Origin: a virus
DNA: 64,000 nucleotides
IMG/VR virus record: IMGVR_UViG_3300025849_003059
Location: 15,929-79,928 of that record
Reading direction: 5' to 3' (one strand)
Shown: piece after piece, positions 1 to 25,110 of the stretch
How positions within the stretch are numbered: position 1 is the stretch's first letter
Layout: the number at the start of each line of letters is the position of its first letter
The notes under the pieces: model-generated
What the model saw: the letters and a program-made list of their open reading frames with translations, nothing else
What the model was told of the DNA's origin: nothing
The model's database searches: none
Program-made: the position numbers and the translations under genes

Positions 1-50
1 TCTGCTTTTGGGGTAAGTGAAATTTCGTTAAGAATATCTAGTAGTTTCAT
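1..50 (-). CDS. 5' fragment of a probable internal head protein (runs off the window start)
   Basis: ATG at 50-48 reads MKLLDILNEISLTPKA and stays open to position 1. The N-terminus has the same MKLxxxLxE style as neighbouring genes. Not in the ORF track. Confidence 0.7.
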   Translation of the reverse strand, partial: MKLLDILNEISLTPKA

Positions 51-51
51 A

Positions 52-1050: not shown

Positions 1051-1058
1051 ATTTTCTC

Positions 1059-1796
1059 CTAACACTTCTTCCAAGTTCCACCTTTACCCTTGTAGTTCTT
1101 AGCTGCCCAACCATTAGCGTAGGCAGAAGGATAAACATCAAATTTCTTTTTTGCTGCTGCTTTAGATGCAGACCATTTACCAGCATCGGTAGGACAATTC
1201 TTTTCCATTAAGGTTTCAACCTTTTTTCCGAATTCGTAAAGAGCTCTTTCTTGTTCGTTTAATTCGTTTTCTTCTTTGATACGAGTTACGATATTACCAC
1301 TCTCAGTTCTTTTAGAGATTGTTACTGCTTGTTCGTTTACTGATTTATCACCACCACATCCACAACCACAGCCACATCCACCATCTTTAGATTCTGATAT
1401 ACCTAATCTTTGTTTCATCTGGTCCTCTGTGATTTCGCCAATCTTGTAGTACCTTGAAAGAATGTGTCCCATATCTTCATATAATCCACCCATTCTTTGG
1501 TCAAGTGCCTTAGCTTCAAGAGCAACTTTATCGAATTGTTTACCCAACTTATCCAATTCACTCATGTTTCTCTTAACTGTATGCTTATCGAACCAATCAT
1601 CACCTTCTCTAATAGCAAGTGTTCTAGCGGCTTCAGTAATTCCACCAAGTGTTTCAGCTACCTTTACGATATCTGATTTTCTATCCATAGATTCTTGGTA
1701 TTTGTTGTAAGTAGAAACAATTTCTAAGAAGTGTTTTTTTACTTCATTAGAAAGAGGTCTTTCTTCGTTTTCTTTAAGTAGTTGGGTTAATTTCAT
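1059..1796 (-). CDS. Hypothetical virion-associated protein with a CGCGCGC tract and a C-terminal KKKFDVYPSAYANGW module
   Basis: 245-aa ORF with AGGAGA RBS and MKLTQLLKE start. The C-terminal module resembles a motif I recall from aquatic T4-like phages. Confidence 0.75.
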   Translation of the reverse strand: MKLTQLLKENEERPLSNEVKKHFLEIVSTYNKYQESMDRKSDIVKVAETLGGITEAARTLAIREGDDWFDKHTVKRNMSELDKLGKQFDKVALEAKALDQRMGGLYEDMGHILSRYYKIGEITEDQMKQRLGISESKDGGCGCGCGCGGDKSVNEQAVTISKRTESGNIVTRIKEENELNEQERALYEFGKKVETLMEKNCPTDAGKWSASKAAAKKKFDVYPSAYANGWAAKNYKGKGGTWKKC

Positions 1797-1809
1797 TTTG
1801 TTCTCCTAA

Positions 1810-2574
1810 TTATATTCCTCTTATCAAACTTCCTATTTTTAATCTTCCTTCTTGTTTTTGTTGTGCATCTTTGAAAGATTTTAATATTGTATTTGCCAAT
1901 TTATGTGAACCATTCATTTTTAAATCGAATACTAAACCTTCAATTGCAGTAGCACCACCCCATCCAGCTTCTTGAGATGATTTAATTCCTAATTCATATG
2001 CATCATCATCAACATCATCTGCGTATTGAGAAGCATATTTAGCTCTAACCACATCCATTTTTTTATCGTAATCTTTATCATCGAATTTTGGATAATCTGG
2101 TTTCTCTCGTAACTCTGGTTTACCTTCTAAATCTGCAACTAACCATCTTGCTTCAGTATGGAAATTAGAATCAGTTAATGCTTCAACAGCTGCTTGAGCC
2201 ATTTTCTTTTCGTATTCTTCTTTACCTATTTTTTTTGGTGAGATTCCAGCTTTCTGAGCTGCTTTACGAATTGCCTTGTTAACTTCTGGGTTTGCTTGGC
2301 CAGTTCCTTCTACTGAATTAGGAGTTGATAAATCTTCGCCACCATCCTTCTTAGGTTCATCTTTATCTTTATTAAATATGTTTACTTTAGGAGTATCTTT
2401 TTTACCAGGTTCTTGTACGGCACTATCCTTATCATCTTTTCTTTTTTCATGAGTACCCGCTTTGATTGCAGAATCTCTTGCAACTTTAGTTTTGAATACA
2501 GAAGTTGTACCAGTTTCTTTACTTGTAGCAGTAAATACCTCAGCCTCATTTATAAATTGTGATAGTTTAATCAT
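1810..2574 (-). CDS. Hypothetical protein, probable internal head protein
   Basis: 254-aa ORF starting MIKLSQFINE, with AGGAAC upstream. Confidence 0.75.
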   Translation of the reverse strand: MIKLSQFINEAEVFTATSKETGTTSVFKTKVARDSAIKAGTHEKRKDDKDSAVQEPGKKDTPKVNIFNKDKDEPKKDGGEDLSTPNSVEGTGQANPEVNKAIRKAAQKAGISPKKIGKEEYEKKMAQAAVEALTDSNFHTEARWLVADLEGKPELREKPDYPKFDDKDYDKKMDVVRAKYASQYADDVDDDAYELGIKSSQEAGWGGATAIEGLVFDLKMNGSHKLANTILKSFKDAQQKQEGRLKIGSLIRGI

Positions 2575-2596
2575 CTTTTTAGTTCCTTTTTTAAAT

Positions 2597-2737
2597 TTAT
2601 TTTGAAACAGTTATGTTACCACCAATAGATGGAGACTTTCCACTTGATGTTGTTGGTTTTGTTATACCACCTAACGATATTTCCTTTGATTCAACTGGTT
2701 GAGTTGGTTTTGTTGGGTTTACATCTCCTATTGCCAT
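2597..2737 (-). CDS. Small Pro/Thr/Ser/Gly-rich protein (46 aa)
   Basis: Hand translation MAIGDVNPTKPTQPVESKEISLGGITKPTTSSGKSPSIGGNITVSK. AGGAG lies 6 nt before the ATG and the ORF fills the gap between neighbours. Not in the track. Confidence 0.6.
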   Translation of the reverse strand: MAIGDVNPTKPTQPVESKEISLGGITKPTTSSGKSPSIGGNITVSK

Positions 2738-2739
2738 AA

Positions 2740-2946
2740 TTAACTCCTATTTTTAAATTTATATTCTTTTGTTTCTTCTTTATGCGTGTATAAATCAAGT
2801 TTACCATCTTCAGTTAACTTAACTTCATAATTAGTTTTTCTAATATCATTGTGGCCTCCTTTAAATGGAGTATCTCCAACAGCTTTTTTAACTGTTCCAA
2901 GGTCAATTGTATTTTTGGCCATATAATCTTGAATACTAAATCCCAT
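2740..2946 (-). CDS. Hypothetical protein (68 aa)
   Basis: ORF tightly packed in the operon. Confidence 0.65.
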   Translation of the reverse strand: MGFSIQDYMAKNTIDLGTVKKAVGDTPFKGGHNDIRKTNYEVKLTEDGKLDLYTHKEETKEYKFKNRS

Positions 2947-2952
2947 AACTTA

Positions 2953-3543
2953 TTAATTTAATTCTGTTATAATTTCTCTCATCATATCTTGAGCTTTACA
3001 GTAATCTCCACAAACAACTTGTTCTTGTAATTGTTTATTTACTGATTCATTCATTGGAGTCATAAATGCTCCATGTGTTGATGGGTTAGAAACAAAATCC
3101 CAACCGATTAACTCAAAATCTTCACCTACTTGTACTTTACCACCTGATAAAGGTTCTACTGAACCCATACCTCTTGATGATATACCTAAAAGAATTCCTG
3201 CTTTAAGTAGTTCTTTTAAGATGTTACCACTCGGTGTTGGAAGTATCTCTACTGTACCTACTAAATCATCATTATCCCAATGAATCTCTCTTACATTGTG
3301 TGATACGTTCTTCAAGTTGATTACTGAAGAATCTGGATGGTCTAATTCACCAAGAGCACGTCTTTCTTTTATAAGTGTTTCGTACTTCTTAGCTTCTCTT
3401 TGTAGAATCTCCATTGGATATATTCTACCATTCTGATTTTCTGCACCAGCTCTCTGTAAAATACCTTTAACAATAGTTCTTCCACTATCATCTTCTTTTA
3501 CTTTACCTTCGAATAATCTGGTTTCTATTAGTAGTTTACTCAT
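2953..3543 (-). CDS. gp21: Prohead core protease (T4 gp21-like)
   Basis: Motifs NQNGRIYP, ALGELDHP, LGISSRGMGS and DFVSNPSTHGA. Likely start ATG at 3543 (TAATG overlap with the upstream ORF). Confidence 0.93.
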   Translation of the reverse strand: MSKLLIETRLFEGKVKEDDSGRTIVKGILQRAGAENQNGRIYPMEILQREAKKYETLIKERRALGELDHPDSSVINLKNVSHNVREIHWDNDDLVGTVEILPTPSGNILKELLKAGILLGISSRGMGSVEPLSGGKVQVGEDFELIGWDFVSNPSTHGAFMTPMNESVNKQLQEQVVCGDYCKAQDMMREIITELN

Positions 3544-3719
3544 TATGCTCCCCACATTTTACGTTTCTTAAATAAATCAAAGAAAATTGCAGATACTTCT
3601 TGTCGAATTAAATCTCGAATAAGTTTTTCATCGTCATTCGTGATTTCTTCGCTGATTCTATCCAATTTTACATTTTGGATTTCTTCATTGATGATATCGT
3701 ACAACTCTCTCTTAGTCAT
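3543..3719 (-). CDS. Small hypothetical protein (58 aa)
   Basis: Hand translation MTKRELYDIINEEIQNVKLDRISEEITNDDEKLIRDLIRQEVSAIFFDLFKKRKMWGA. Its stop overlaps the protease ATG. Not in the track. Confidence 0.7.
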   Translation of the reverse strand: MTKRELYDIINEEIQNVKLDRISEEITNDDEKLIRDLIRQEVSAIFFDLFKKRKMWGA

Positions 3720-3995
3720 TTATTTTTTTTCTTTTTTCTCAATTGCCTTTTGAAGTGCTGGTGGTAGTTTTTTCTGAGCTGCGGTCAACTCTTCTGCCAC
3801 TTGTTCTTTTTTTTCTCCTCTACCTTTCCAAGTAGCATCGATTTTATTAAAGAATGCCTTCTTTTCTTCATCAGACATAGATGGAATTGATTTTCCAGCT
3901 TTTTCCAATGCTTTTTTGAAGAATTCTTGATATTCGTTTTCTTCAATCATTGTTTCTCTGATGATTTCTTTTAATCTATTTTTTGATATTTTCAT
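3720..3995 (-). CDS. Putative prohead core protein (gp67/gp68 position)
   Basis: 91 aa with EYQEFFKKALEK...DEEKKAFFNKID, lying between portal and protease. Confidence 0.5.
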   Translation of the reverse strand: MKISKNRLKEIIRETMIEENEYQEFFKKALEKAGKSIPSMSDEEKKAFFNKIDATWKGRGEKKEQVAEELTAAQKKLPPALQKAIEKKEKK

Positions 3996-4807
3996 TTTTC
4001 AATCTCCTGTATTGTTCGAGCGATATTAATTAATCTCTCCTTTATCTTATAAATATGATTATTTGTTCTTTTCCAATACTGATTGGAATCCAACTCATTC
4101 ATAGTTTTGATTTTATTATACCAATTGAAAAATTTCTCAGTTTCTCTTAGTTGATATTTTAATTCTTTTAAACCCATTGCCATCTTCTTATGAGGATGCA
4201 TTGTTTCATCGTTCTTTAATTCTAACCAACGATTAACAGGTCTTTTCACTTTAGCTTCGTTTACTGATTCTTTTAAATACTTTTTCCAATCTGAAAAATC
4301 TGGTGCTTTGTCAACTTCAATAAAATTACTTTTATATCTTAACTTAGGTTGTTTACTTAAATCATATCCTAATCTAACAGCAACTTTCTTTTTTAAATCT
4401 ACATAAAAAAGTGCACCATGATAATCAATTAAGTATGCACCTTTTTTACCATCAATAAATCCAGGTATATTTTTTAATAATACACCAGGAGATGTTAATC
4501 CTAAACCAGAATGTCCTGCAATATATTTTACAGGTGTATCTTTAGTAAGTTGAAAATATTCATGTCCTCTTTTTGGAGATACCAATCCTTCATTAATATC
4601 ATCTTCATCAATCTTACCAACTATCTTCATACCAAATTGAGTTGAAATCTTTTTCTTTCTTTTCTTATCTTTTCTACCACCATCAGAGAAAGCACCAGGC
4701 ACATTATAACCTGCCACATTACCTGTTGCAGTTGCTTCATCTAATTCTTTTTCAATTTCTTGAATTAGTTCATCAATAAAGTTATTAAGGTTTTTTTCCA
4801 TTGACAT
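3992..4807 (-). CDS. Modular hypothetical head-region protein
   Basis: 271-aa ORF with LDE, INE and ESVNE linkers. Confidence 0.75.
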   Translation of the reverse strand: MSMEKNLNNFIDELIQEIEKELDEATATGNVAGYNVPGAFSDGGRKDKKRKKKISTQFGMKIVGKIDEDDINEGLVSPKRGHEYFQLTKDTPVKYIAGHSGLGLTSPGVLLKNIPGFIDGKKGAYLIDYHGALFYVDLKKKVAVRLGYDLSKQPKLRYKSNFIEVDKAPDFSDWKKYLKESVNEAKVKRPVNRWLELKNDETMHPHKKMAMGLKELKYQLRETEKFFNWYNKIKTMNELDSNQYWKRTNNHIYKIKERLINIARTIQEIEK

Positions 4808-5654
4808 TTTTTATTTCCTTTACTAACTCATAAGACATCATTAAAGCGGAAACCTGGTCATCGTTAATTTTCTTACCGATTTTTTGTTTTTTCAAAACAT
4901 TAATAGTTTCACGCAATTTAATTTTTGTAATCTTATCTTTCATTCCTTTATACAAATCATGTAATTCGGTAATTGTTCTTATAAGTTCTTTCTCAAAGTA
5001 ATCACCAAATTTAGATGTGTTAGTAATGTTGTTAATATACTCTCTTAATAATCCTTTTTGTATTTCATTTAAGTTAGTATATTTTTTGTTGAAAGTTTCT
5101 ACAAGAATTTTATAAGTAAGTAATCTTAAATCCTTTTCTTGTTTTTTGTAATCTTCAACGAGTCTGTCCTCTTTTTGTTTAAGAGTTGGAATTGAGTTGG
5201 AAATATGTTCAACGATAGTAAGTTTAGAATCAAAAATATCTTTTACATCAAGAATATCATTTTTCTTTCCTTCAAATAATTTATGTACTGATGCTAAAAT
5301 CTTGTAATTGGTAACAGGCGAAGATAAAAGATTATCAATTTCAAAGTTTTCTTTTATTGATTTAACAAGATTGAATTTCTCTCTTTTTAATTTTGAGTAA
5401 TTAATTTTCGTATGTGCTTCTAATATGGCATCAATAAATTTCTCAGCTTTAAGTTCTGAGTTATATTTTTCATTTATTAACAGATTATACAATCGAAGTT
5501 CTTTGGCAAGTTCAGTTTTTCCACTAAAGAATTCTCTAACAATTTCTTTAGCTTTTTCTTCACCACCATTTAAAACTTCAAGTGTAATCTGACGGGTTAG
5601 TATTTCGAAAAGAAAACCCGTATTCTTGAATTTTGAATGTCTTACTTTTTTCAT
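4785..5654 (-). CDS. Hypothetical helical protein downstream of portal
   Basis: The track start at 5669 is TTG; ATG at 5654 gives MKKVRHSKFKNTGFLFEIL. Confidence 0.8.
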   Translation of the reverse strand: MKKVRHSKFKNTGFLFEILTRQITLEVLNGGEEKAKEIVREFFSGKTELAKELRLYNLLINEKYNSELKAEKFIDAILEAHTKINYSKLKREKFNLVKSIKENFEIDNLLSSPVTNYKILASVHKLFEGKKNDILDVKDIFDSKLTIVEHISNSIPTLKQKEDRLVEDYKKQEKDLRLLTYKILVETFNKKYTNLNEIQKGLLREYINNITNTSKFGDYFEKELIRTITELHDLYKGMKDKITKIKLRETINVLKKQKIGKKINDDQVSALMMSYELVKEIKNVNGKKP

Positions 5655-5694
5655 TTTAATAATTTCCAATTACAATATTATAAAATTACTCTAT

Positions 5695-5702
5695 TATAAA
5701 TA
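5695..5702 (-). promoter_or_regulatory. TATTTATA putative late-promoter motif
   Basis: Intergenic copy of a motif found before ten minus-strand genes and, inverted, before the plus-strand gene. Confidence 0.6.
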
Positions 5703-5727
5703 TAAATTTATAAAAGATTAACTATTT

Positions 5728-7455
5728 TTAATCATTATCGAGGATATTGGATTCATCCAACATATCCTTCATTTCATGTAAATACTTACGTTTTGCTGAT
5801 ATACCGTTGATAACTTTCAACGCTTTTTCCTCAGAAGTACGAGAACGTTTTGATGTTCTCTCCTTATCACCTAAAGGGTCTCTACCTAATGGATGTTTAT
5901 CTTTTCCATAAGTTCCACCTTCACGAGGCCTTCCACCTTTATCTTTAATTTCTTGTTTGATATTTTCAATTTGTTCTTCAATATCATCTGGTTCTTCAGA
6001 TTCCATTGCAGGGTCGTTACCCTCATCTTCAATCATACGATAACGATATCTATCTTTAATATCATCAAGTATTTTTGTTCTTTCATCATCTTGAGCACCA
6101 TCTGCAACTTTAAAGATGTTTTCGTAAACCCATTCTTTAGATAACATATTTAATCCTTGAATATCTTGAGCCAATCTAATTTTTTCACTCCACAAGTTTA
6201 CTTTTTCTTGTTCGTAAATTGTAGATGGATTTACAAGTTTTAATTCAAAGTTAGTCATTTCAAAATCTTGAATTCCTTGTGAGTACAAATGAACTATTGC
6301 AATCTTAGATAATTCTGAAATAAGTGTTCTTTGGATTCTTTCAATCGTTCTTGCAAATCTTACATCTTCTGCAGCAAGAGTTGCTTTACCATTTATATTT
6401 TCTTCGTATCCTAAATAAGCTTTTGGAATCTTTAATGCTGCAAACATTTTGTTTTTTAAATAATCAATATCATCAATAGTTGCGTACTCTAAACCTGCAA
6501 GGTTATCAATAGATGTACCACTATCACCGCCACGAACAGGAAGATAGAAATCTTCTGTTAAGTTTTGCATATTGTACTTTAAGTTGTAATCACCAGTATT
6601 TCTATCGATGAAAGGAACTTTCTTCATCTTGTTGATGATTCTCTGCATATAGTTATCCACTTCTGTTGGTGGGATATTACCAATATCAATTTTGAAAACT
6701 CTTTTTTCAGGTGCTCTCATGATTCTATGGATTAACATAGCATCTTCCATTAGAGATAATTGTTTCCACAATCTTCTTCCATTCTCAATCATAGATTTAC
6801 CATATGGTAACCAGTTAGTATCTGCTAACAACCTAAAATGAGCAATTTCAAAGTTTTCATATTCTTCTTTTCCATTCGGGTCCTCAGTAATTTTAAACTT
6901 TACTGAATTTGGATTCGATGGGTCTGTTCTTTCTAATCTTTCTGTATTGTAAACTGAATGAGGAGTAACATTTACGATACCTTTACCTTCTGCAACTTCT
7001 AAACCTAAGAAGAAATCTCCATATTTTACCAAGTTTCTTGTCCAAGGCCATAGGTTAAACTCTACATTAAGAATATCGTAGAATAAGTTTTCTAATAATC
7101 CTTGTACTTTTGGATTATCCGATTGAACAAGAAGTACATCACCAAATTCGTTCTTTAATGTACATTCATCTGCATATATATCAAGAGCCGATGCTAATAT
7201 CGGGTCGTTATCCATTGCATCGTAATCTCTAAAAACTTCTCTACGAACTTGTTGGTATGCCATTGATTGTGCACCACCTGCTTGTTCAAAAAAAGATTTC
7301 TGTAATTTTGTGTATCTATCTCTTAAAGAAGATAAGTTTGTTTGTTGACGTTCATCACCATCAAACACTTTTCGTTTACCATCTTTATCGATAGTAACTA
7401 CTGCTTGTGCTCTAAAGAGTTTTGTTAACCTCCCAAAAAATGAAGTATCTGCCAT
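5728..7455 (-). CDS. gp20: Portal protein (T4 gp20-like)
   Basis: Motifs MEDAMLIHRIMRAPEKRVFKIDIGNIP, EDFYLPVRGG, IDDIDYLKNKMFAALKIP and EDVRFARTIERIQ. Confidence 0.95.
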   Translation of the reverse strand: MADTSFFGRLTKLFRAQAVVTIDKDGKRKVFDGDERQQTNLSSLRDRYTKLQKSFFEQAGGAQSMAYQQVRREVFRDYDAMDNDPILASALDIYADECTLKNEFGDVLLVQSDNPKVQGLLENLFYDILNVEFNLWPWTRNLVKYGDFFLGLEVAEGKGIVNVTPHSVYNTERLERTDPSNPNSVKFKITEDPNGKEEYENFEIAHFRLLADTNWLPYGKSMIENGRRLWKQLSLMEDAMLIHRIMRAPEKRVFKIDIGNIPPTEVDNYMQRIINKMKKVPFIDRNTGDYNLKYNMQNLTEDFYLPVRGGDSGTSIDNLAGLEYATIDDIDYLKNKMFAALKIPKAYLGYEENINGKATLAAEDVRFARTIERIQRTLISELSKIAIVHLYSQGIQDFEMTNFELKLVNPSTIYEQEKVNLWSEKIRLAQDIQGLNMLSKEWVYENIFKVADGAQDDERTKILDDIKDRYRYRMIEDEGNDPAMESEEPDDIEEQIENIKQEIKDKGGRPREGGTYGKDKHPLGRDPLGDKERTSKRSRTSEEKALKVINGISAKRKYLHEMKDMLDESNILDND

Positions 7456-7495
7456 GTTTTCCTAATTTATGTTATAACCTTTATTAATTAATTTA

Positions 7496-7885
7496 TTACC
7501 ATTTTCTACAAGACCAATATCTTGCTTTGTGTCTTGGACCTGGTGAATCACAGTTGTGTCTTGCTCTAAATGCTTTTCTTGCATCTGGATTATTCTTTCG
7601 AATAGACATTGTTTTTTCTCCTGATTTCTTTGCGGAACTTCCTCCATGTCCGAAGTTTACTTTGACAACATTTCCTTTAGGGTTTTTAACATATACTTTG
7701 AATTTCTTGGTATCACCTTGCATCGGTTTACCTAATTTTACAGTTCTACCTTGATATTCTGCTTCATTTATATCAGATTTATATTCTTTCATAAATTCAC
7801 AAAATTCTTTTATATCATGGTAATTTTCCACAGTATATTCTTCTGTATGTACTTCTTCTTTAAGTAATTCCTGCAATGATATCAT
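7496..7885 (-). CDS. Conserved T4-like phage protein (DUF6321-like, recalled)
   Basis: Motifs EAEYQGRTVKLGKP, KKFKVYVKN, KVNFG and FRARHNC...ARYWSC; N-terminus MISLQELLKE. Confidence 0.7.
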   Translation of the reverse strand: MISLQELLKEEVHTEEYTVENYHDIKEFCEFMKEYKSDINEAEYQGRTVKLGKPMQGDTKKFKVYVKNPKGNVVKVNFGHGGSSAKKSGEKTMSIRKNNPDARKAFRARHNCDSPGPRHKARYWSCRKW

Positions 7886-7915: not shown

Positions 7916-9508
7916 TTATTTAATTAACCAAGTTAAATCTTCATTTGAATCACCAACTCTCATTTTCCATGGGTTTTCTTCCATCGCTGAATTACCACCA
8001 AAGCCCATTCCTGCAACATCCAATTGATGTGCTCCAATACCACCTAATGCTTGTTTTGTTAAATCAATTCCTTCTTGTCTTAATCGGAGGGCAGTATCTC
8101 TAACCCACAATCCGATTGATAATGACATTGTTAAATCATCATTATAACCTCTCATAGCTTCTGCTCTATTACCATTCCATATAAATGTAAATAATTCATC
8201 GATAGTTCTTGATGAACGAATAGTAATATCCTTTTCTCTAATATATTGTTCTAATTTAGATATGATTAAAGGTCTTGTTTTAGATGTTGTACTAAATCCA
8301 GCAACCATTCCTCTATCTTGTCTATTATATTTGTTATTTAATTGATTTTCGGTATCTACATATTTTAAGTCCTTACTCATATAGAAAGTATTTTGATAAC
8401 CTCTATCAATTACTTGTTGTAAAACTGCCCAACCAATATTTGCATTCTCAACTACAAGTAATGCGTTGTTATAATCAGTTGCAAGGGAAACTAAAAAGTT
8501 TCCAAAATCTTTTGTATCTAATTTACCTTTATATTCTGCAACTTGCGCTGCTTCTTCTATATCAATTACATGACAAGCTGAAAAGTCACTTGAATCTCCA
8601 CGAGCAACATCCGCAACTACCATATAAGATTTCTGATAGTTTGGATATTCCCATTTCCACAAGTTTCCATCAAATCCTGTCTTTTCAACAGGTTCTTGTA
8701 CAAATGATTCTTTATAGAACATTAAAAGTTGTGGGTCAATCACAGTATCACCCGAAGATACAAAATCACAATCACATTCTTGTGCTGCTCCTTTTTTTCC
8801 TAATAATACCTCTTGTTCATCTCTCCAATCTTGGTCTCTTTCTGGATGTACACTCCAATGTAATCTAATTGTGTTAAAAGTATTTGTTTCTTCTTCTGCA
8901 CCTACCCAAGTTTTGTGAAAGAAGTTTCCTACACCATTTGGTGTTGAAAGTATGATTGCATTACCACCAGTCGATAGTGTAGATTGTGCTGATACCCATA
9001 TATCTTCAATCTTATCAATAAATGCTGCCTCATCAAATACTAATAGAGATAGTGCTTCAGAACGACCAGCATCTCCAGCGGCTGAAGTTGCTTTTATCTG
9101 AGAACCGTTCGAGTATCTTAGAGATAGTTTATTATCCTCTACTGTTGTTTGTTTTAACCACGATGGTAAGTACTGGTTCATCACACGAACCTTCGTTACA
9201 AGGTTCTTAGCAACTTCTTGTTTAGTTGCAATTACCAATACATTAAAATCTTGATTGAATAGCATTTTCCAAAGAGAAAATCCCGCGGTTAGGGTTGAGA
9301 TACCCGTTTGTCGAGATTTAAGAATGATGTTGTATCTATGTTCTGCAAACTCATTTAAAGTTCTTTCTTGAAACTGATATAAGTGAAAAGGAATTTTACC
9401 TCTAACTGGATGTTGTATCATACAGTACTTCTTCATGAAGTATATAGGGTCTTGAGCACATTTCTGATACTCAATTTTTATTATTTCCTTTAAACTTTGT
9501 TTAGCCAT
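7916..9508 (-). CDS. terL: Terminase large subunit (T4 gp17-like)
   Basis: Walker A-like LKSRQTGIST, Walker B LLVFDEAAF, coupling motif LSTPNG, nuclease ADVARGDSSD and C-terminal YNDDL. Confidence 0.95.
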   Translation of the reverse strand: MAKQSLKEIIKIEYQKCAQDPIYFMKKYCMIQHPVRGKIPFHLYQFQERTLNEFAEHRYNIILKSRQTGISTLTAGFSLWKMLFNQDFNVLVIATKQEVAKNLVTKVRVMNQYLPSWLKQTTVEDNKLSLRYSNGSQIKATSAAGDAGRSEALSLLVFDEAAFIDKIEDIWVSAQSTLSTGGNAIILSTPNGVGNFFHKTWVGAEEETNTFNTIRLHWSVHPERDQDWRDEQEVLLGKKGAAQECDCDFVSSGDTVIDPQLLMFYKESFVQEPVEKTGFDGNLWKWEYPNYQKSYMVVADVARGDSSDFSACHVIDIEEAAQVAEYKGKLDTKDFGNFLVSLATDYNNALLVVENANIGWAVLQQVIDRGYQNTFYMSKDLKYVDTENQLNNKYNRQDRGMVAGFSTTSKTRPLIISKLEQYIREKDITIRSSRTIDELFTFIWNGNRAEAMRGYNDDLTMSLSIGLWVRDTALRLRQEGIDLTKQALGGIGAHQLDVAGMGFGGNSAMEENPWKMRVGDSNEDLTWLIK

Positions 9509-10894: not shown

Positions 10895-13800
10895 TTAAAA
10901 GAAAATACCAAGTATTTGGTTTACCGATGCGAATGTACCTGTAAGTTTAAAAGTATTTCCTTTATATAAGAATACAATACCTTCATTTGGTACAATTTTC
11001 TTAGAACCACCGATAGATTTTAATCTACCAAGTTCTAATTTAAGTTTTTCAATCTTTTTTGGGTCACCTGATTTCTTAACATCTTTTATTGTCTTATCAA
11101 TTCGTTTTTTCATATCTCGAACTGCTGAATCAGGGTTAACTGTTAATGCAGATGAAGTGAATTCTAATACTTCTGCACCTAAACCTAAGAATATTTGTTC
11201 AAACTTCATTAAGTTCTTCTTACCAATCTTCTTTTGGTCATCTTTATCTGTTTTCTTAGCCCATTCTAATGTTTTTTCATCAGTAATGTTCTTTTTATCT
11301 AATCTAAATCCTTTATCCATGAACGCCCATCTCTTAACTAACCCCATTTTGGTTTTATTATCAAGTGATGAAGGTGAGTTCTTATCAACCCATTGTTCCC
11401 ACCATGCTTGATGGTAGTTTGCAACACCATCGGTATCCTTTAAACTGAATTCTTTTTGTAATTTAGATATCTGTGATGAGTATTTGCTACGTTTTTTAGT
11501 TAAATCTTGTGATTTTGGTAATTTTACAACAGGTGGACCTTTGATTGTGTAACTATCTTGTACATCTTTGTTCACTTGTTTAATCATACCAGCTAATATT
11601 CTAGCAGCATCACCATTTTCACCAATTGCAACACCTTCTTCATTGAATTCCATAGTACCATGGAACACAAGTAACGCCTGACCATAAGGAATAACGTTTA
11701 CTGATGTTGGGTATATCACTTCAAGATTCATAAAACACGCACCTTGTTTGAATATCTTATCTCTTTGTTTATCCGATAACGATTTGATAGCATTTGAGAG
11801 GTCTTTCATCGCATAATTGTATGCATCACTCAATCCACCCCTACCTTGGAACTTATCCGATACCCCTTTGATATCTAAAGCGTTCTCACCTCTGTTCTTT
11901 AGGTGTCCTTTGTTCCTCGCTGCCACTAACCTACCATCTCTCCATGAAATAGCAAGTGCTTGACCATCTGTTTTCTCTCTTGTGAACTCAAGTGTACCTT
12001 CTAAAGCACGATTTACGATATCTTTAAGTTGTCCAAAGGTTAAATTGATATCAGTATCAAATGGATGAGACATGTGTCCATACGCACCACCTTCTGTAAG
12101 TATTGATTCACCCAATCCACCTCTATCGTGTTTAGAAAATTTACCTAATTTATCGAAAGCTCTGAATGATTTAACTTTGTTTACCTTTTTTGGTGTCATT
12201 ACAGATAGTTGTTTGTACTTCATATGGTTTTTAACAATATAAAATACATTTGCAGTGTTACCACCAACATCTTCTATAAACTTTTTATACTTCTTTACTA
12301 ATGAAGCAGATACTTTCTCGTGTCCGAAGTGTGTGATGTGTCCTTTCTTTGGGTGAATACCCGCAGTTTCATCTTTTCCTATATCATGGAACATTGCTGC
12401 AATTGCAATATCAATATCATCATCTTTGATTGAACGATTTACAACCATAATTGTATGTTTGAGAACATTTCCTTCTGGATGTTTATCTAATCTCTGTCCA
12501 AAGTTCTTTAAGTTATACACTCTCTTTTGTAAATCAGAAGGCATCTTTTTAAATAAGGATTTGAAATCTGTAATTCCTAATTCCTTTAATCCTTCTTTAA
12601 CTACTTTGTCTTTTTTTAACATTTTGTGTAATTCTACACCATCTGCATCTTTTCCAAACCCTTTACCGATTTGTTTTTTCCAAAGTAACTCTAAAAACTT
12701 CTTTTTTTGTTTTGGTGATAATCCTTTTATCTTTTGATTAATTTGTTTTCTGTTTTTATAAACATATTTTTTGAAATCCATGTAAAAGAAATCATTTACT
12801 TCTTCCTTAATTTCACCTTCTTTTTTAGTAAACTTCTGTGCTTCTGCATCTCTTAATTGAGGTAGGAATCTAAATCTTGCTCTTTTAAGAACTCTTCCTT
12901 TTTTTCTCATTACATTTTTGTGAACTATCTTTGCTTGTTGAATAGATAAATCTTTTTTAGCAATACCTGGAAATAATTCTTCTCTAAATTCATCATAAAC
13001 TTGTAGATATGCCTTTTTGTATGCAATTTTCTTTAATTTAGAAAGAGGTTTTTTTCTCATCATAGTTCTTTTTCTTCTTCTTGCTATTTGAGCTCGTTTA
13101 CCTGCCATCGCTGCTTTTCTTCTAAGTAAATCTGCTGGTCTAAGCTTACCTTTACTTCTTTCATCGATATCTACATCTTCAGATAATCCCATTTTCTCTT
13201 GCCATGAATCAAAAGCATCGAAATCATATTCTTGTTTCTGAGAATCCCACCCACATGAATGACATAAATATTTTTCATCATCTTCGGATTCAATATCCCA
13301 AGAATGATTACACTTTTCACACTTTACAGCAGTTCCTGCGAGTTCTGATACGAATCCTTCTTTAACCATTCTAAAGGTAACCACTTTTCTGCCATTGATT
13401 GTTGGCATTCCATGTTCATCTTTACCGATTGATTTAATAACTGTCTTTTTGTTCTTAAATCTACCAGTCATAATGGTATCACCAACTTTAACTGGTAATA
13501 CTATATTTTCATTTAAAGATGCTTCGTATTCTTCTTGTGATTTCTTATCACCTTTTTGAGAATCTAATGATGCATCTTTGGTATCTTTAGTAGTATCCAA
13601 TCCTTTTACCAATTCGTAACCAACTAATGCTGCTTTACGAGTAACGTGCTTAAACCATTTAGAATAAGCATCACTTGAATAGATATCCACTTGGTTAGTT
13701 GCAGTTTGTGTACCAAGTACACCTGCTGGGAATGGGGTTACTGCCTTTACAGGTCCATCAGGATAAATCGGATGGTCATAATAATCTTCTAACTCTTTGT

Positions 13801-14572
13801 TAGTAATCATATTTACTACTTCGTATCCAATTCTCTTTGCCCTATCTACATTTATACGAGAGAACACATCATAGTTTGGGAAGAATACATTTGGTCCATC
13901 ATCTGATTGTCCTATGCCTGATTTGGAGCTCTCATTTATTAACCACTCTTCTATCATCTCTTTAGAAATTTCAATTCCTTCATCAAGTTTATCTGTAATC
14001 ATCTTAAAGATGGTTGCATTAAACTTTCCATAGGCTCTTTTCTTAAAGAAGTTTTGTTTTTGTTCGTCCGAACCAACTGATAACCCATTACGAGTTTCAG
14101 TTCCACTTATACCACCACCACTTTGGGGTGCAGCATAAACGTACCCACCATCTCTATAACCAACCGATGGTTCTCCCTTATAGGGTTGGAAGTATTTACC
14201 ACCTAATCGGTTTTTATCCTTCATACCCACAACAGTTACAAATGCAGTTGTTTCTTCATCAAACTTTTTAAGTATCTCTGTGGGTTTGTATGGATTTTTA
14301 ACTTTGAATATTTTGGATTTTGGAATTCCAAACATTGTAGTTGCAATTTTCACCTTTTCTTTGAAATTAAAAGGTGATTTGGGTTTTTCAACCTTATCAG
14401 ATGTACCAACGAATACATTATCCTTACCGAACTTTTTGACAAGGTGTTGGTAAGTACCATAGTGTCCTTTGTGCATAGGTTGAAACCTACCCACATAGAT
14501 AACTACTGTTTTTTTAATAGGATTCTCATCCTCCATTATACTCTCTACGAGAAATTTGGAAAGTTCATTCAT
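10895..14572 (-). CDS. Multidomain polyprotein: HxGH nucleotidyltransferase (NMNAT/cytidylyltransferase-like), Zn ribbon, HD phosphohydrolase, KxDG ligase-like domain
   Basis: GRFQPMHKGH...SPFNFKEK...ISGTETR; CEKC...CHSC; HPEGNVLKHT...FHDIGK...GHEKVSA; EGGAYGHMSHPFD...EKTDG. Confidence 0.75.
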   Translation of the reverse strand: MNELSKFLVESIMEDENPIKKTVVIYVGRFQPMHKGHYGTYQHLVKKFGKDNVFVGTSDKVEKPKSPFNFKEKVKIATTMFGIPKSKIFKVKNPYKPTEILKKFDEETTAFVTVVGMKDKNRLGGKYFQPYKGEPSVGYRDGGYVYAAPQSGGGISGTETRNGLSVGSDEQKQNFFKKRAYGKFNATIFKMITDKLDEGIEISKEMIEEWLINESSKSGIGQSDDGPNVFFPNYDVFSRINVDRAKRIGYEVVNMITNKELEDYYDHPIYPDGPVKAVTPFPAGVLGTQTATNQVDIYSSDAYSKWFKHVTRKAALVGYELVKGLDTTKDTKDASLDSQKGDKKSQEEYEASLNENIVLPVKVGDTIMTGRFKNKKTVIKSIGKDEHGMPTINGRKVVTFRMVKEGFVSELAGTAVKCEKCNHSWDIESEDDEKYLCHSCGWDSQKQEYDFDAFDSWQEKMGLSEDVDIDERSKGKLRPADLLRRKAAMAGKRAQIARRRKRTMMRKKPLSKLKKIAYKKAYLQVYDEFREELFPGIAKKDLSIQQAKIVHKNVMRKKGRVLKRARFRFLPQLRDAEAQKFTKKEGEIKEEVNDFFYMDFKKYVYKNRKQINQKIKGLSPKQKKKFLELLWKKQIGKGFGKDADGVELHKMLKKDKVVKEGLKELGITDFKSLFKKMPSDLQKRVYNLKNFGQRLDKHPEGNVLKHTIMVVNRSIKDDDIDIAIAAMFHDIGKDETAGIHPKKGHITHFGHEKVSASLVKKYKKFIEDVGGNTANVFYIVKNHMKYKQLSVMTPKKVNKVKSFRAFDKLGKFSKHDRGGLGESILTEGGAYGHMSHPFDTDINLTFGQLKDIVNRALEGTLEFTREKTDGQALAISWRDGRLVAARNKGHLKNRGENALDIKGVSDKFQGRGGLSDAYNYAMKDLSNAIKSLSDKQRDKIFKQGACFMNLEVIYPTSVNVIPYGQALLVFHGTMEFNEEGVAIGENGDAARILAGMIKQVNKDVQDSYTIKGPPVVKLPKSQDLTKKRSKYSSQISKLQKEFSLKDTDGVANYHQAWWEQWVDKNSPSSLDNKTKMGLVKRWAFMDKGFRLDKKNITDEKTLEWAKKTDKDDQKKIGKKNLMKFEQIFLGLGAEVLEFTSSALTVNPDSAVRDMKKRIDKTIKDVKKSGDPKKIEKLKLELGRLKSIGGSKKIVPNEGIVFLYKGNTFKLTGTFASVNQILGIFF

Positions 14573-14593: not shown

Positions 14594-14601
14594 TATAAAT
14601 A
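14594..14601 (-). promoter_or_regulatory. TATTTATA putative late-promoter motif
   Basis: Intergenic, upstream of the 14572 start. Confidence 0.6.
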
Positions 14602-14616
14602 TTGAAAAGGGTAAGT

Positions 14617-23689: not shown

Positions 23690-25110
23690 AATTTTACATT
23701 TACCATCTTTGCTTTTGGTGATATTTCTTCAATACTAACTAATTCATACTTTAAAGAATTCATACCATCGGATTTATAATCCCAATCACCTTGTTGCATT
23801 TGTCTTATATATCTTCTTTCGTTTCTTGCGGTTGTTTCTCCCTTTTTCCACTTACCATCAATTAATCCTTCATCTTCATGTTCTAAACAAAACATTCTAC
23901 CAGGTACTCTGTGTGGTACTGTTGTGTATGGGATGTTAATATCTTCTTTTATATATTCACAGTTATTTATTTTACCTTCCACTTCATCAATTAAATCAAT
24001 TGCTTTACCTTTTTTAAAATTCATGTGAAATACCAATCCATCATCTGTCGGTTTTTTCGAAAGATTTTCTACTTCTTCTTTTGATAGTGGTCTATCCCAC
24101 ATCTTTACATCTGCTATATCTCCTTTAAACCATTTAGATACATCATTATCTTCAACTGATGTTGTTGTTCCTAAATAATATGGAGTATTTCCATATCTCT
24201 TTAAATGTCCTTCAAAATATTGAGGTGATTTAGTACCAGTACCCCATCTAGCATCAGATTCTTTTCCATTCATATATAAATGAACTTTACCATCATCTAC
24301 AACTAAAGTAACCCATGCCCATAATCCTTCGTAGCGTTTCATCCATTGATATAAATGATTTCCTTTATTGTTCCAAAGTTGAGCTGTGTACGCTCTTGAG
24401 TTATTATAAGATAATCCCCAATCATATCCTGGTCGTCTGAATATGGGGTATTCTACAAATCTCCTATCTTCATCACCAATCAAGTAAATAGGAACTTTAT
24501 CTTCTTGTTGTTGTGCTCGTACTAAAACAGAAACAGTATGTTCTCTTGTAGTAACATTTCTAAGTTTTCTTGATGTTGGTATTTCTACATAAGATGAATT
24601 ACCATCAAATCTTAAAAATTCCATATCTTTACCATCAAAATCCATGTAAGTATCATCTGCATAACCTTCTAATACACATCTCCAAAACAAATCATCATCT
24701 TCCATACCCCAATCCCAATAATCATTAGAGTATCCATTAGTATTCATTACTTGCTCTTTTGAAAATAAAATTGCTCCACCAAAATATTCTTCATATTTTA
24801 GTTCATAGTTCATTTGTGAAATTTGAGTTGCAATATGTCTTGGTTTTTCAGTAGGGTAGGAATAATCACATCCTTCTTCTGGTACCATATCGATATCATG
24901 CCAAACAATATAATCACAACCATCCTTGAATGCTTGTTCTGCAGCAATATTTTTCATTGCACCTCTGTTAAATAACTTATCATCTGTTTGGTGACCAAAA
25001 TACATACAATAGTCGATACCCCTTTCTTCAAGAAATTTACCAATTCTTGGTACAAACTCCTTTAGATGGGCTTCTCTGTTTCTATATGGTACACAAACTC
25101 CTAGTTTCAT
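23686..25110 (-). CDS. GT7 (beta-1,4-galactosyltransferase-like) with inserted LamG domain (1 of 3)
   Basis: VPYRNR, FNRG, HDIDM, YFGG and WGMEDDD; LamG FDGNSSYV...GDIADVKMWDRPLS; tail DGMNSLKY. Likely start ATG at 25110 (MKLGV). Confidence 0.88.
   Translation of the reverse strand: MKLGVCVPYRNREAHLKEFVPRIGKFLEERGIDYCMYFGHQTDDKLFNRGAMKNIAAEQAFKDGCDYIVWHDIDMVPEEGCDYSYPTEKPRHIATQISQMNYELKYEEYFGGAILFSKEQVMNTNGYSNDYWDWGMEDDDLFWRCVLEGYADDTYMDFDGKDMEFLRFDGNSSYVEIPTSRKLRNVTTREHTVSVLVRAQQQEDKVPIYLIGDEDRRFVEYPIFRRPGYDWGLSYNNSRAYTAQLWNNKGNHLYQWMKRYEGLWAWVTLVVDDGKVHLYMNGKESDARWGTGTKSPQYFEGHLKRYGNTPYYLGTTTSVEDNDVSKWFKGDIADVKMWDRPLSKEEVENLSKKPTDDGLVFHMNFKKGKAIDLIDEVEGKINNCEYIKEDINIPYTTVPHRVPGRMFCLEHEDEGLIDGKWKKGETTARNERRYIRQMQQGDWDYKSDGMNSLKYELVSIEEISPKAKMVNVKL

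What the first reader, a model, noticed from the sequence alone, without database searches (positions are those of the whole stretch)
10895..14572. 1225-aa polyprotein joining NMNAT-like, CCA-type HD and KxDG ligase-like enzymes: candidate injected counter-defence kit
Seen in sequence: an N-terminal GRFQPMHKGH...SPF..KEK...SGT domain (~14.0-14.5 kb), a KOW-like module, a CxxC-CxxC ribbon (~13.3 kb), a basic helical module, an HD domain HPEGNVLKHT...HDIGK...GHE (~12.1-12.5 kb) and a C-terminal EKTDG domain (~10.9-12.1 kb). Linkers are LDE/INE/LNE/VKE/IKE/LGESILTE. Established: GRFQP-H-GH is the NadM/NMNAT signature. The HD pattern resembles the 2'-nucleotidase/cyclic phosphodiesterase domain of multifunctional CCA enzymes. 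KxDG is motif I of RNA/DNA ligases. Healing plus sealing is how T4 Pnk/Rnl1 repairs cut tRNA, and NMNAT is used in phage NAD reconstitution. Inference: the protein is packaged, protease-processed and delivers RNA-repair and/or NAD-restoring enzymes at infection, against anticodon nucleases or NAD-depleting defences.
Basis: partly seen in the sequence, partly recalled or inferred. Interest (0 to 1): 0.8.

Follow-up and report, generated by a model that had tools for sequence, protein, structure and literature searches.

The report
Modular phage cargo protein with RNA-repair enzymes
A marine T4-like jumbo phage encodes, just upstream of its DNA-packaging and head genes, a 1225-residue chain of separable enzyme modules (an NMN-adenylyltransferase-like enzyme, an HD phosphohydrolase and a previously unmodelled RNA-ligase-like enzyme). 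Its leader peptide and module seams look like head-protease cleavage signals, so it is probably loaded into the capsid and cut into a ready-made RNA-repair kit, but this is not proven.

Summary
Window 10895-14572 (-) is one 1225-aa ORF. It carries a NadM/archaeal-NMNAT-like HxGH nucleotidyltransferase, a small beta module, a CxxC-CxxC ribbon, a very basic helical stretch, an HD domain, and a 398-aa C-terminal domain.

The C-terminal domain has the fold and motif order of Rnl1-type RNA ligases but matches no Pfam, NCBIfam or PHROG model.

The family is very large, with more than 2700 marine metagenome proteins. It is built from cassettes: the ligase domain is nearly always C-terminal, usually coupled to the NTase, and the middle modules vary. 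Relatives add a CCA-adding enzyme, an AAA_33 kinase, DUF5661 or GNAT.

Three lines of comparative evidence favour capsid targeting and protease processing:
- Every module seam carries hydrophobic-x-Glu.
- The 10-residue leader MNELSKFLVE has the pattern of the T4 IPIII capsid-targeting sequence. About ten neighbouring head-module genes share it, including the S77 (gp21-type) prohead protease.
- In a relative with unfused NTase and ligase genes, each gene carries its own copy of that phage's leader.

Packaging itself is untested. The NAD-restoring reading is weak, because complete relatives lack NAMPT.

Other agents of this scan noted the same family on other genomes. Verdict: a new variant of known kinds (T4 heal-and-seal repair, CTS-targeted internal proteins, polyvalent proteins).

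The parts
14594..14602 (-). ATATTTATA promoter-like motif about 20 nt upstream of the start codon
   Evidence: 14 matches in the window against 5.75 expected. Ten lie 15-30 nt upstream of minus-strand gene starts, including head and tail-fibre genes. Function is inferred.
14543..14572 (-). Leader, residues 1-10, MNELSKFLVE: candidate capsid-targeting propeptide ending in L-V-E
   Evidence: Same length and pattern as T4 IPIII MKTYQEFIAE. The motif occurs in the first 18 aa of 12 of 65 ORFs of the contig, all in the head module, against about 1 expected. It precedes whichever module comes first in relatives.
13979..14542 (-). HxGH (HIGH) nucleotidyltransferase, residues 11-198, NadM/archaeal NMNAT-like
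   Evidence: Pfam PF01467. Three motifs align to NMNAT structures. Foldseek probability 1.0 to NaMNAT/NMNAT/PPAT. pLDDT 80-92.
13931..13978 (-). Acidic linker, residues 199-214, with the seams LDE198, MIE208 and INE214
   Evidence: pLDDT below 50. Homology breakpoints cluster at 196-214.
13508..13930 (-). Module B, residues 215-355, unknown function, ending in a disordered acidic linker and LNE355
   Evidence: A separable homology block, q212-326, in many relatives. Low-confidence fold. No family hit.
13358..13507 (-). Small beta module, residues 356-405 (SH3/KOW-like), mobile within the family
   Evidence: Four short strands. It is found at different positions in about 100 relatives, preceded by Glu (mostly hydrophobic-x-Glu) in every complete row shown and usually followed by h-x-E.
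13160..13357 (-). Zinc-ribbon module, residues 406-471 (C418-x2-C421 ... C437-x2-C440), acidic
   Evidence: The sequence itself. Weak HypA, MJ0042 and Zn_ribbon hits. Seams at VSE410 and LSE465/IDE471.
12803..13159 (-). Basic helical module, residues 472-590 (pI 11.4, 34% K+R)
   Evidence: AF2 helices. Composition. Homology breakpoints at 581-593 next to IKE590.
12593..12802 (-). Second helical module, residues 591-660, ending VKE660/LKE664
   Evidence: Upstream contexts vary between relatives, but h-x-E is kept at the seam before the HD module.
12092..12592 (-). HD phosphohydrolase module, residues 661-827, ending LGE822/LTE827
   Evidence: Pfam HD E 5e-7, above cut-off. NCBIfam HDIG and the HD part of a CCA enzyme. 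pLDDT 75-93.
10898..12091 (-). RNA-ligase-like covalent nucleotidyltransferase domain, residues 828-1225. Motifs: GGAYGHMxHPFD, EKTDG (K867), NKG, NLE (E951), FHG, EGIVF (E1197) and FKLTG (K1209), with a roughly 170-aa helical insert between IIIa and IV.
   Evidence: AF2 pLDDT 91.5. Almost all of the Foldseek top 50 are ligases. VIA Z 9.3 to Naegleria RNA ligase and 9.0 to T4 Rnl1. hhalign places K867 on Rnl1 K99 and E951 on E159.
2953..3555 (-). Prohead core serine protease (Peptidase_S77, T4 gp21 family), the presumed processing enzyme; it carries the same leader type (MSKLLIE)
   Evidence: Pfam PF03420 E 4e-26. PHROG head maturation protease E 1e-49. Leader.
7916..9508 (-). Large terminase, the conserved downstream neighbour
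   Evidence: PHROG TerL. TerL lies on the same strand within 6 kb downstream of the ligase end in 70 of 70 IMG/VR relatives.

Best explanation
P0001 is a late-module 'cargo polyprotein' of a marine T4-like jumbo phage.

A 10-residue T4-CTS-like leader would take it into the prohead core. There the phage's gp21-type (S77) protease, which cuts after Glu, would remove the leader and cut the hydrophobic-x-Glu seams. That would release a NadM-like adenylyltransferase, an HD phosphohydrolase, a new Rnl1-like RNA ligase and several small or basic modules.

These products would travel with the DNA into the next host. There the HD module (removal of 2',3'-cyclic or 3'-phosphate) and the ligase module (sealing) would repair broken RNA, most likely tRNA cut by host nucleases, before any phage gene is expressed.

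Shown here: the domain identities, the fold, the conserved catalytic motifs, the cassette architecture, the seam motifs, the shared leader, and the position in the head module.

Inferred: cleavage, packaging, ejection, the RNA substrate, and what the NTase makes.
For: Enzyme identities.

RNA-repair theme: relatives carry PolyA_pol (a CCA-adding enzyme), AAA_33 kinase and HD between the same NTase and ligase. The complete relative G001 encodes the kinase as a separate gene.

Processing and targeting:
- An S77 protease lies in the same head module. gp21 homologues cut C-terminal to Glu, and the first 10 residues of IPIII suffice for head incorporation (PMC5694885, PMC9026906).
- The leader motif occurs in 12 of 65 ORFs of the contig, all in the head module, against about 1 expected.
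- In G001, 19 ORFs carry the motif against about 6 expected. Eight of them cluster in the head module, and the separate kinase gene starts MSLKSLITE.
- In L010 the unfused NTase, the ligase and two other genes each start with the phage's own IGPY[IL]xE leader.
- [LI]-x-E directly precedes the ligase domain in 105 of 135 non-redundant members, in a segment AF2 leaves disordered.
- The kinase, HD and beta modules all begin right after h-x-E, whatever lies upstream.
- Motif placement relative to linkers gives P = 0.0015. Homology breakpoints lie a median of 3 residues from the seams, against 21 at random.

Context: a promoter-like motif is shared with structural genes. TerL lies downstream in 70 of 70 relatives.
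Against: There are no virion proteomics or cleavage data for any family member.

About 20% of non-redundant members have Cys or Met instead of Glu before the ligase domain.

Stand-alone ligase genes in L007 and L010 sit among replication and recombination genes, not head genes.

This protein has no 5' kinase, so it could not by itself seal 5'-OH ends. The 83-kb contig is only about 32% of a genome, so a separate kinase cannot be checked.

Motif V is K-L-T rather than KxK. No sequence profile of known RNA ligases matches, and hhalign to T4 Rnl1 is weak (E 0.06).

Linkers are Glu-rich in any case. The breakpoint counts are not phylogenetically independent.
Confidence: 0.5

Rival explanations
1. 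A cytoplasmic, uncleaved multidomain RNA-repair or tRNA-maturation enzyme made late in infection. The N-terminal helix and the Glu-rich linkers are ordinary structural features or recombination seams, and nothing is packaged.
For: Phage tRNA repair enzymes such as T4 Pnk and Rnl1 act in the cytoplasm (annotation). Stand-alone family members lie among replication genes. About 20% of seams before the ligase lack Glu. AF2 puts residues 2-13 in a helix.
Against: The leader is shared with the prohead protease and about ten head-core genes but with none of the roughly 40 other genes on the contig. It is portable: it precedes different first modules and sits on unfused orthologues in a lineage-specific form. 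The seams keep h-x-E while the flanking modules change.
Confidence: 0.25
2. The NTase module is a true NMNAT that rebuilds NAD+ against NAD-depleting defences (as in NARP2 or NadV/NatV). The ligase and HD are an unrelated second weapon.
For: The GRFQPxHxGH, xPFxxxE[RK] and SGTExR motifs align with archaeal NMNAT and NadM. The closest folds are NMN/NaMN adenylyltransferases.
Against: NCBIfam NMNAT scores are far below cut-off (26.7 against 127). Two CheckV-complete relatives have no NAMPT/NAPRTase to supply NMN. The NTase is coupled to the ligase domain in fused, reversed and unfused arrangements, which points to a shared task. A subset replaces HxGH with GxHH.
Confidence: 0.12
3. The ligase domain seals DNA rather than RNA, for example nicks or ends of the injected genome, or acts like T4 gp63 with a second, morphogenetic role such as tail-fibre attachment. 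Either would explain its place among late structural genes.
For: DNA ligases also appear among the fold matches at Z 5-7. T4 Rnl1 is annotated as RNA ligase and tail-fibre attachment catalyst. The gene sits between glycan/tail-related genes and TerL.
Against: The best structural matches are RNA ligases (Rnl5, Rnl1, REL1, Rnl2, Trl1). The co-occurring modules in relatives act on tRNA or RNA ends: a CCA-adding enzyme with a PolyA_pol RNA-binding domain, a kinase and HD. No OB or DNA-binding ligase domain is present.
Confidence: 0.08

Closest known systems
T4 Pnk + Rnl1 (gp63) tRNA heal-and-seal pathway against PrrC
   Same: Phage-encoded end-healing plus an Rnl1-like ligase. The fold match to T4 Rnl1 is Z 9.0 over 191 residues. 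Motifs I, Ia and III line up (K867/K99, K888/K119, E951/E159). Relatives add a P-loop kinase.
   Different: No detectable sequence-profile membership. A roughly 170-aa helical insert lies before motif IV, where Rnl1 has a C-terminal domain. Motif V is K-x-T. A new GGAYGHMxHPFD motif is present. Healing is by an HD rather than a HAD phosphatase. The domain is fused to a NadM-like NTase, and the gene is late and in the head module rather than early and cytoplasmic.
T4 internal proteins and Alt (CTS-targeted, gp21-processed, ejected with the DNA)
   Same: A 10-residue N-terminal leader of the same pattern, ending hydrophobic-x-Glu. A gp21-family S77 protease lies in the same module. Cargo identity varies behind a conserved leader.
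   Different: The cargo here is a chain of up to about ten modules with internal seams, not a single small protein. The enzymes are RNA-repair types rather than nuclease inhibitors or an ADP-ribosyltransferase. Packaging is not shown.
Polyvalent proteins of phages and conjugative elements (Iyer et al. 2017, PMC5512222)
   Same: Many unrelated conflict-related enzyme domains sit in one polypeptide of a portal-terminase phage, proposed to be packaged and released by proteolysis.
   Different: There is no embedded peptidase; release would be by the trans-acting prohead protease. That survey did not describe RNA ligase fused with a HIGH NTase, and it reported few polyvalent proteins in cyanobacteria and archaea.
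Bacterial class II CCA-adding enzyme with a C-terminal HD domain (Cca)
   Same: The HD domain is most similar to Cca HD (TIGR02692 region 254-345). Relatives carry PolyA_pol and PolyA_pol_RNAbd next to it.
   Different: This protein has no PolyA_pol head. In relatives the order is HD then PolyA_pol, with an h-x-E seam between them.
NadM / archaeal NMNAT (MJ0541, Francisella NadM)
   Same: Three signature motifs and the fold.
   Different: Scores are far below the family cut-offs. There is no Nudix partner and no NAMPT in complete relatives. It is consistently linked to a ligase domain.

Membership tests
Covalent nucleotidyltransferases / ATP-dependent RNA ligases (Rnl1-like) | Motif I KxDG with a nucleophilic Lys | tested here: met
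   EKTDG: K867, D869 and G870 are invariant in 55 sequences down to 39% identity. hhalign places K867 on T4 Rnl1 K99.
Covalent nucleotidyltransferases / ATP-dependent RNA ligases (Rnl1-like) | Motifs III (acidic), IIIa (aromatic) and IV (EG), in that order | tested here: met
   E951, E1197 and G1198 are invariant; F970/H971 are invariant or nearly so. E951 aligns with Rnl1 E159 (a weak alignment).
Covalent nucleotidyltransferases / ATP-dependent RNA ligases (Rnl1-like) | Motif V KxK | tested here: inconclusive
   FKLTG: K1209 is invariant, but the second position is a nearly invariant Thr (T1211), not Lys.
Covalent nucleotidyltransferases / ATP-dependent RNA ligases (Rnl1-like) | Adenylyltransferase-domain fold | tested here: met
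   pLDDT 91.5. Almost all of the Foldseek top 50 are RNA or DNA ligases, though the best E is only 6.6e-3. VIA Z 9.3, rmsd 4.0 over 186 aa to Naegleria RNA ligase; Z 9.0 over 191 aa to T4 Rnl1.
Covalent nucleotidyltransferases / ATP-dependent RNA ligases (Rnl1-like) | Match to a curated RNA-ligase sequence model | tested here: not met
   No Pfam, NCBIfam or PHROG hit on residues 828-1225, even at E up to 1 for Pfam and NCBIfam. A profile search against PDB sequences finds no ligase.
Covalent nucleotidyltransferases / ATP-dependent RNA ligases (Rnl1-like) | Self-adenylylation and RNA sealing | not testable with these tools
   Needs biochemistry.
NadM / archaeal NMN adenylyltransferase | GRFQPxHxGH, xPF[TS]xxER-like and SGTExR motifs, plus the Rossmann-like HIGH fold | tested here: met
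   Alignments to 1f9a, 4yp5 and 2qjt. Foldseek probability 1.0.
NadM / archaeal NMN adenylyltransferase | Score above the curated family cut-off | tested here: not met
   NF002243 26.7 bits against 127. TIGR01527 22.5 against 181.
NadM / archaeal NMN adenylyltransferase | NMN + ATP -> NAD+ activity | not testable with these tools
   Indirect evidence only: no NAMPT/NAPRTase partner in two complete relatives.
HD-domain metal-dependent phosphohydrolases | Pfam HD above the gathering score, with H...HD...H residues | tested here: met
   PF01966 30.5 bits against 22. HPEGNVLKH, FHDIGK and GHE are present.
Cca-type HD (2',3'-cyclic phosphodiesterase / phosphatase of CCA enzymes) | HD fused C-terminal to a PolyA_pol head and body | tested here: not met
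   No PolyA_pol in P0001. In relatives the HD lies upstream of PolyA_pol.
T4-type CTS-targeted, gp21-processed head internal proteins | A gp21-family protease encoded by the phage | tested here: met
   Peptidase_S77 E 4e-26 at 2953-3555.
T4-type CTS-targeted, gp21-processed head internal proteins | A short N-terminal propeptide ending hydrophobic-x-Glu, shared among head-core proteins | tested here: met
   12 of 65 ORFs against about 1 expected, all in the head module. T4 IPIII comparison.
T4-type CTS-targeted, gp21-processed head internal proteins | Presence in virions and cleavage after Glu | not testable with these tools
   No proteomics were found for any homologue.
Polyvalent proteins (Iyer et al. 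2017) | Multiple conflict-related domains with an embedded releasing peptidase | tested here: not met
   It is multidomain, but no peptidase domain lies in P0001. The protease is a separate gene.
Complete heal-and-seal RNA repair kit | A 5'-OH polynucleotide kinase | tested here: not met
   There is no kinase or P-loop family hit in P0001 and none on the 83-kb contig, which is 32% complete. A kinase is present inside relatives' polyproteins or as a separate leader-bearing gene in G001.

The most novel reading that the evidence does not exclude
The near-obligate pairing of a NadM-like adenylyltransferase with this new ligase family reflects one coupled reaction. The NTase module would make or regenerate the ligase's nucleotidyl donor, either NAD+ from the released NMN or another adenylylated cofactor. 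The result would be an RNA ligase system that keeps working in a host whose ATP or NAD pools are being destroyed by defence systems, delivered pre-made inside the capsid as protease-released cassettes.
Probability: 0.1. Interest if true: 0.88.

Novelty: new variant of a known kind. Interest (0 to 1): 0.7.

Why it matters
If the reading is right, abundant marine jumbo phages bring their RNA-repair enzymes with them instead of expressing them after entry. That would answer how a phage survives nucleases that act before its first genes are translated.

It would also extend the T4 capsid-targeting system from small inhibitor proteins to long, freely shuffled enzyme polyproteins cut by the head protease.

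Independently of packaging, three findings stand:
- The C-terminal domain is a large RNA-ligase-like family that no model library covers: 1765 clusters at 50% identity with E up to 0.001.
- It has unusual topology.
- It has a conserved, unexplained partnership with a NadM-like enzyme.

All three points can be tested directly by biochemistry and virion mass spectrometry.

Tried and rejected
- Sequence-profile routes to name the C-terminal domain gave no ligase: Pfam, NCBIfam and PHROGs on the whole protein and an A1 profile against PDB sequences. The eS6 and TetR hits fall in the basic, low-complexity helical insert, and I treat them as spurious.
- hhalign of A1 against T4 Rnl1 is statistically weak (E 0.06). 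I used it only for motif register.
- ESM Atlas feature searches of modules 215-355 and 472-660 gave nothing usable.
Occurrence in cellular genomes or prophages was therefore not surveyed.
- Literature searches for Mel-JY01, packaged RNA ligase, NMNAT plus RNA ligase in phages, marine T4-like virion proteomes, and CTS in cyanophages found no description of this family. PMC5062991 (Burroughs and Aravind 2016) is not held.
- NAMPT and AAA_33 searches on the window's own contig were negative but uninformative, because the record is about 32% complete.
- One search was a mistyped reference and returned an error.
- I did not use complex prediction. No specific binding claim is made.

Full report
**What is there**

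Window 10895-14572 (minus strand) is a single ATG-initiated ORF of 1225 codons, stored as P0001. About 8 nt upstream of the start lies an AAGGTG Shine-Dalgarno-like sequence, and about 20 nt upstream the motif ATATTTATA. That motif occurs 14 times in the window against 5.75 expected. Ten copies lie just upstream of minus-strand gene starts, including head and tail-fibre genes.

The window belongs to an 83,472-bp IMG/VR virus record that CheckV rates 32% complete. Its GC content is about 30%.

In transcription order the surrounding genes are:
- a large NDP-sugar / radical-SAM / glycosyltransferase cluster
- two unknown genes of about 470 aa each
- P0001
- unknown genes of 219 and 222 aa
- TerL
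- a 129-aa gene
- portal
- several small unknown genes
- a Peptidase_S77 (T4 gp21-type) prohead protease
- more small genes
- a ribosomal-protein-S21-like gene
- a 403-aa gene
- the major head protein

TerL is 54-57% identical to the TerL of Microcystis phage Mel-JY01 and of the Flavobacterium 'immuto' phages, and about 32% identical to cyanophage gp17. This is a distant T4-like myovirus with a genome of roughly 200-280 kb.

**Domains**

*N-terminal nucleotidyltransferase, residues 11-198.* This is an HxGH nucleotidyltransferase. Pfam CTP_transf_like scores above its cut-off and PHROG calls it a cytidyltransferase. Three motifs (GRFQPMHKGH, KSPFNFKEK, SGTETR) align with the corresponding motifs of MJ0541, M. 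thermoautotrophicum NMNAT and Francisella NadM. Foldseek gives probability 1.0 to NaMN/NMN adenylyltransferases and PPAT. NCBIfam NMNAT scores are far below the curated cut-offs. I therefore call it NadM-like, substrate unproven.

*HD domain, residues 661-827.* Pfam HD scores above its cut-off. The best NCBIfam hit is the HD part of an actinobacterial CCA enzyme.

*Middle modules.* Between the NTase and the HD lie five modules:
- an unknown module (215-355)
- a small four-strand beta module (356-405)
- a CxxC-CxxC ribbon (406-471)
- a very basic helical stretch (472-590; pI 11.4)
- a further helical piece (591-660)

*C-terminal domain, residues 828-1225.* No Pfam, NCBIfam or PHROG model hits this domain. 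With a 55-sequence alignment it folds at pLDDT 91.5.

Almost all of the top 50 Foldseek PDB matches are RNA or DNA ligases, led by T4 Rnl1 and fungal Trl1, although E-values are only around 1e-2. VIA-align gives:
- Z 9.3 to Naegleria RNA ligase (rmsd 4.0, 186 aligned)
- Z 9.0 to T4 Rnl1 (191 aligned)
- Z 8.7 to T. brucei REL1
- Z 8.5 to T4 Rnl2
- Z about 8 to Trl1
- Z 5-7 to DNA ligases

The invariant residues fall in ligase motif order: K867-x-D-G (I), N887-K888 (Ia), E951 (III), F970-H971 (IIIa), E1197-G1198 (IV), K1209 (V). A weak hhalign to T4 Rnl1 (E 0.06) nevertheless puts K867 on K99, K888 on K119 and E951 on E159.

The domain differs from known Rnl families in three ways:
- A helical insert of about 170 residues lies between IIIa and IV.
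- Motif V reads K-L-T, with a nearly invariant Thr where a second Lys is expected.
- An invariant GGAYGHMxHPFD motif sits at the N-terminus.

AlphaFold DB clusters that match are unnamed, or are labelled 'Cytidyltransferase-like domain-containing protein' or 'RNA ligase domain-containing protein'.

**The family**

More than 2700 proteins match the whole protein, almost all from marine metagenomes. The ligase domain alone finds 1765 clusters at 50% identity. It sits at the C-terminus in nearly every case, in proteins of 396 to 1930 aa, including stand-alone forms of about 410 aa.

Of 35 diverse members, 29 carry the NTase. Variable middle modules include HD (9 members), DUF5661 (8), PolyA_pol (7), AAA_33/Zeta-toxin-type kinase (4), ROS_MUCR, GNAT and an intein.

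P0149 (1930 aa) reads NTase, DUF5661, AAA_33 kinase, HD, PolyA_pol + RNA-binding domain, ligase. That is every activity of a tRNA heal, re-CCA and seal pathway in one chain.

P0010 is 83% identical to P0001 over the first 826 residues and 99% identical over the ligase domain. It has a 385-aa PolyA_pol module inserted exactly at the HD/ligase seam.

Among IMG/VR relatives whose ligase domain is at least 84% identical, the gene ranges from about 900 to 2100 codons. TerL follows on the same strand within 6 kb in 70 of 70 loci.

Mel-JY01 has a 639-aa NTase + ligase form seven genes upstream of TerL.

**Evidence for targeting and processing**

1. *The protease.* The phage's protease belongs to the gp21 family. 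Characterised members cut C-terminal to Glu after a short motif. In T4, 10-20-residue N-terminal propeptides (capsid-targeting sequences, CTS) direct internal proteins into the prohead, and the first 10 residues of IPIII suffice for incorporation (PMC5694885; PMC9026906).

2. *The leader.* P0001 starts MNELSKFLVE. T4 IPIII starts MKTYQEFIAE. The pattern [LIVM]..[hydrophobic][LIVM].E occurs within the first 18 residues of 12 of 65 ORFs on the contig, against about 1 expected. All 12 lie in the head module, and the protease itself is one of them. None of the roughly 40 genes beyond P0001 has it.

3. *The leader is portable.* In relatives it precedes whichever module comes first, whether the NTase or the beta module. 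Stand-alone ligases begin with leaders such as MITFRQYISE|GG or MRNIGPYLIE|GG. In locus L010 the NTase (182 aa) and the ligase (419 aa) are separate neighbouring genes. They and two other genes each begin with that phage's own version of the leader, [IL]GPY[IL]x(1,2)E. In the CheckV-complete 276-kb relative G001, the AAA_33 kinase is a separate gene far from the head module. It starts MSLKSLITE and has the seam MIIE|GVDDPGIL, the same seam type that precedes kinase modules inside polyproteins.

4. *The seams.*
   - P0001 has 19 [LIVM]xE tripeptides. Twelve touch AF2 low-confidence segments, which make up 12.6% of residues, against 5.4 expected after shuffling within structure classes (P = 0.0015). 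Only two lie inside a well-folded domain.
   - 324 BLAST breakpoints against relatives cluster at 196-214, 321-355, 399-415, 452-471, 581-593 and 654-669. Their median distance to a seam Glu is 3 residues, against 21 at random. These counts are not independent events.
   - Directly before the ligase domain, P3 is L or I in 130 of 135 non-redundant members and P1 is Glu in 105 of them. AF2 leaves this segment disordered.
   - The beta, kinase and HD modules all start right after h-x-E, whatever lies upstream.

**Caveats**

- No virion or cleavage data exist for any member.
- P1 is Cys or Met in about 20% of members.
- The stand-alone genes in L007 and L010 sit among replication and recombination genes. 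T4 IP genes are also scattered, so this is not decisive.
- P0001 lacks a kinase. The incomplete contig cannot show whether a separate kinase exists.
- The NAD-reconstitution idea is weakened because two complete relatives lack NAMPT/NAPRTase.
- It is also weakened by the persistent NTase-ligase coupling, seen fused, in reversed order in P0264, as neighbouring genes in L010, and in distant AFDB clusters. That coupling remains unexplained.

**Comparison with what is known**

The parts resemble three known systems:
- T4 Pnk/Rnl1 repair
- T4 CTS-targeted internal proteins
- the 'polyvalent proteins' of Iyer et al. 2017 (PMC5512222)

Among the passages of that survey retrieved, none links an RNA ligase to a polyvalent protein. 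It invoked embedded peptidases for release and noted few polyvalent proteins in cyanobacteria and archaea.

What appears to be new, and was not found in the held literature:
- RNA-repair cassettes behind a CTS-like leader with prohead-protease seams
- a ligase family with no existing model
- its NadM-like partner

Earlier notes of this scan describe the same family on other genomes. I re-derived the points used here independently.

**Verdict**

I class this as a new variant of known kinds.

My sub-estimates for the parts of the explanation:

| Claim | Confidence |
|---|---|
| Domain identities | about 0.9 |
| RNA-repair role | about 0.6 |
| Capsid targeting and processing | about 0.55 |
| Full explanation taken together | 0.5 |

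Noticed in passing
window 1-7885, and G000:C1:15407-15978 (just outside the window): About ten head-module ORFs start with the same leader type: 254 aa MIKLSQFINE, 245 aa MKLTQLLKE, 129 aa MISLQELLKE, 271 aa MSMEKNLNNFIDE, 91 aa, 58 aa, protease MSKLLIE, 76 aa MKLLDILNE and 114 aa MKLQNIIDE. They are probably prohead-core or internal proteins. Most have no family assignment.
   Followed up: partly
window 5695, 7903, 10862, 14594, 37028, 38161, 49374, 49402(+), 58129, 59450, 61419: ATATTTATA occurs 14 times against 5.75 expected, mostly 15-30 nt upstream of gene starts of head, tail-fibre and other late-looking genes. It is a candidate late promoter that differs from T4 TATAAATA.
   Followed up: partly
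L010:6623-11260 (ENA scaffold, 89 kb): A relative in which the NTase, ligase, a 128-aa gene and a 344-aa gene are separate, and each begins with [IL]GPY[IL]x(1,2)E. A very basic 86-aa protein and a Peptidase_C92 gene lie between them. It looks like the unfused counterpart of the polyprotein.
   Followed up: partly
G001:C1:244764-245582 (L093:1360-2178): In a complete 276-kb relative, the AAA_33 kinase is a separate 272-aa gene. It has a CTS-like leader (MSLKSLITE) and further h-x-E sites before the P-loop domain, and lies about 140 kb from the head module.
   Followed up: partly
G000:C1:15024-15353 (about 0.6-0.9 kb before the window start): A ribosomal protein S21-like gene (phrog_21469, E 4e-8) sits inside the head module, between internal-protein-like genes and the major head protein.
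   Followed up: no
window 25107-25517: A second, small cytidylyltransferase-like ORF (GNFDVLHPGY motif) lies inside the sugar / radical-SAM cluster. It is distinct from the NadM-like domain of P0001 and is probably a sugar-phosphate nucleotidyltransferase.
   Followed up: no
IMG/VR loci L011-L090: The ligase domain is 84-98% identical across relatives while the whole gene varies from about 900 to 2100 codons, which implies fast cassette gain and loss at the seams. TerL lies downstream in 70 of 70 loci.
   Followed up: yes
G000:C1:82642-83208 (beyond the window end): A 188-aa ORF at the contig end encodes a Pro/Gly-rich run (PPSPRGGGGGGGGG), atypical for this 30% GC phage. It may be an assembly chimera or a foreign insert.
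   Followed up: no
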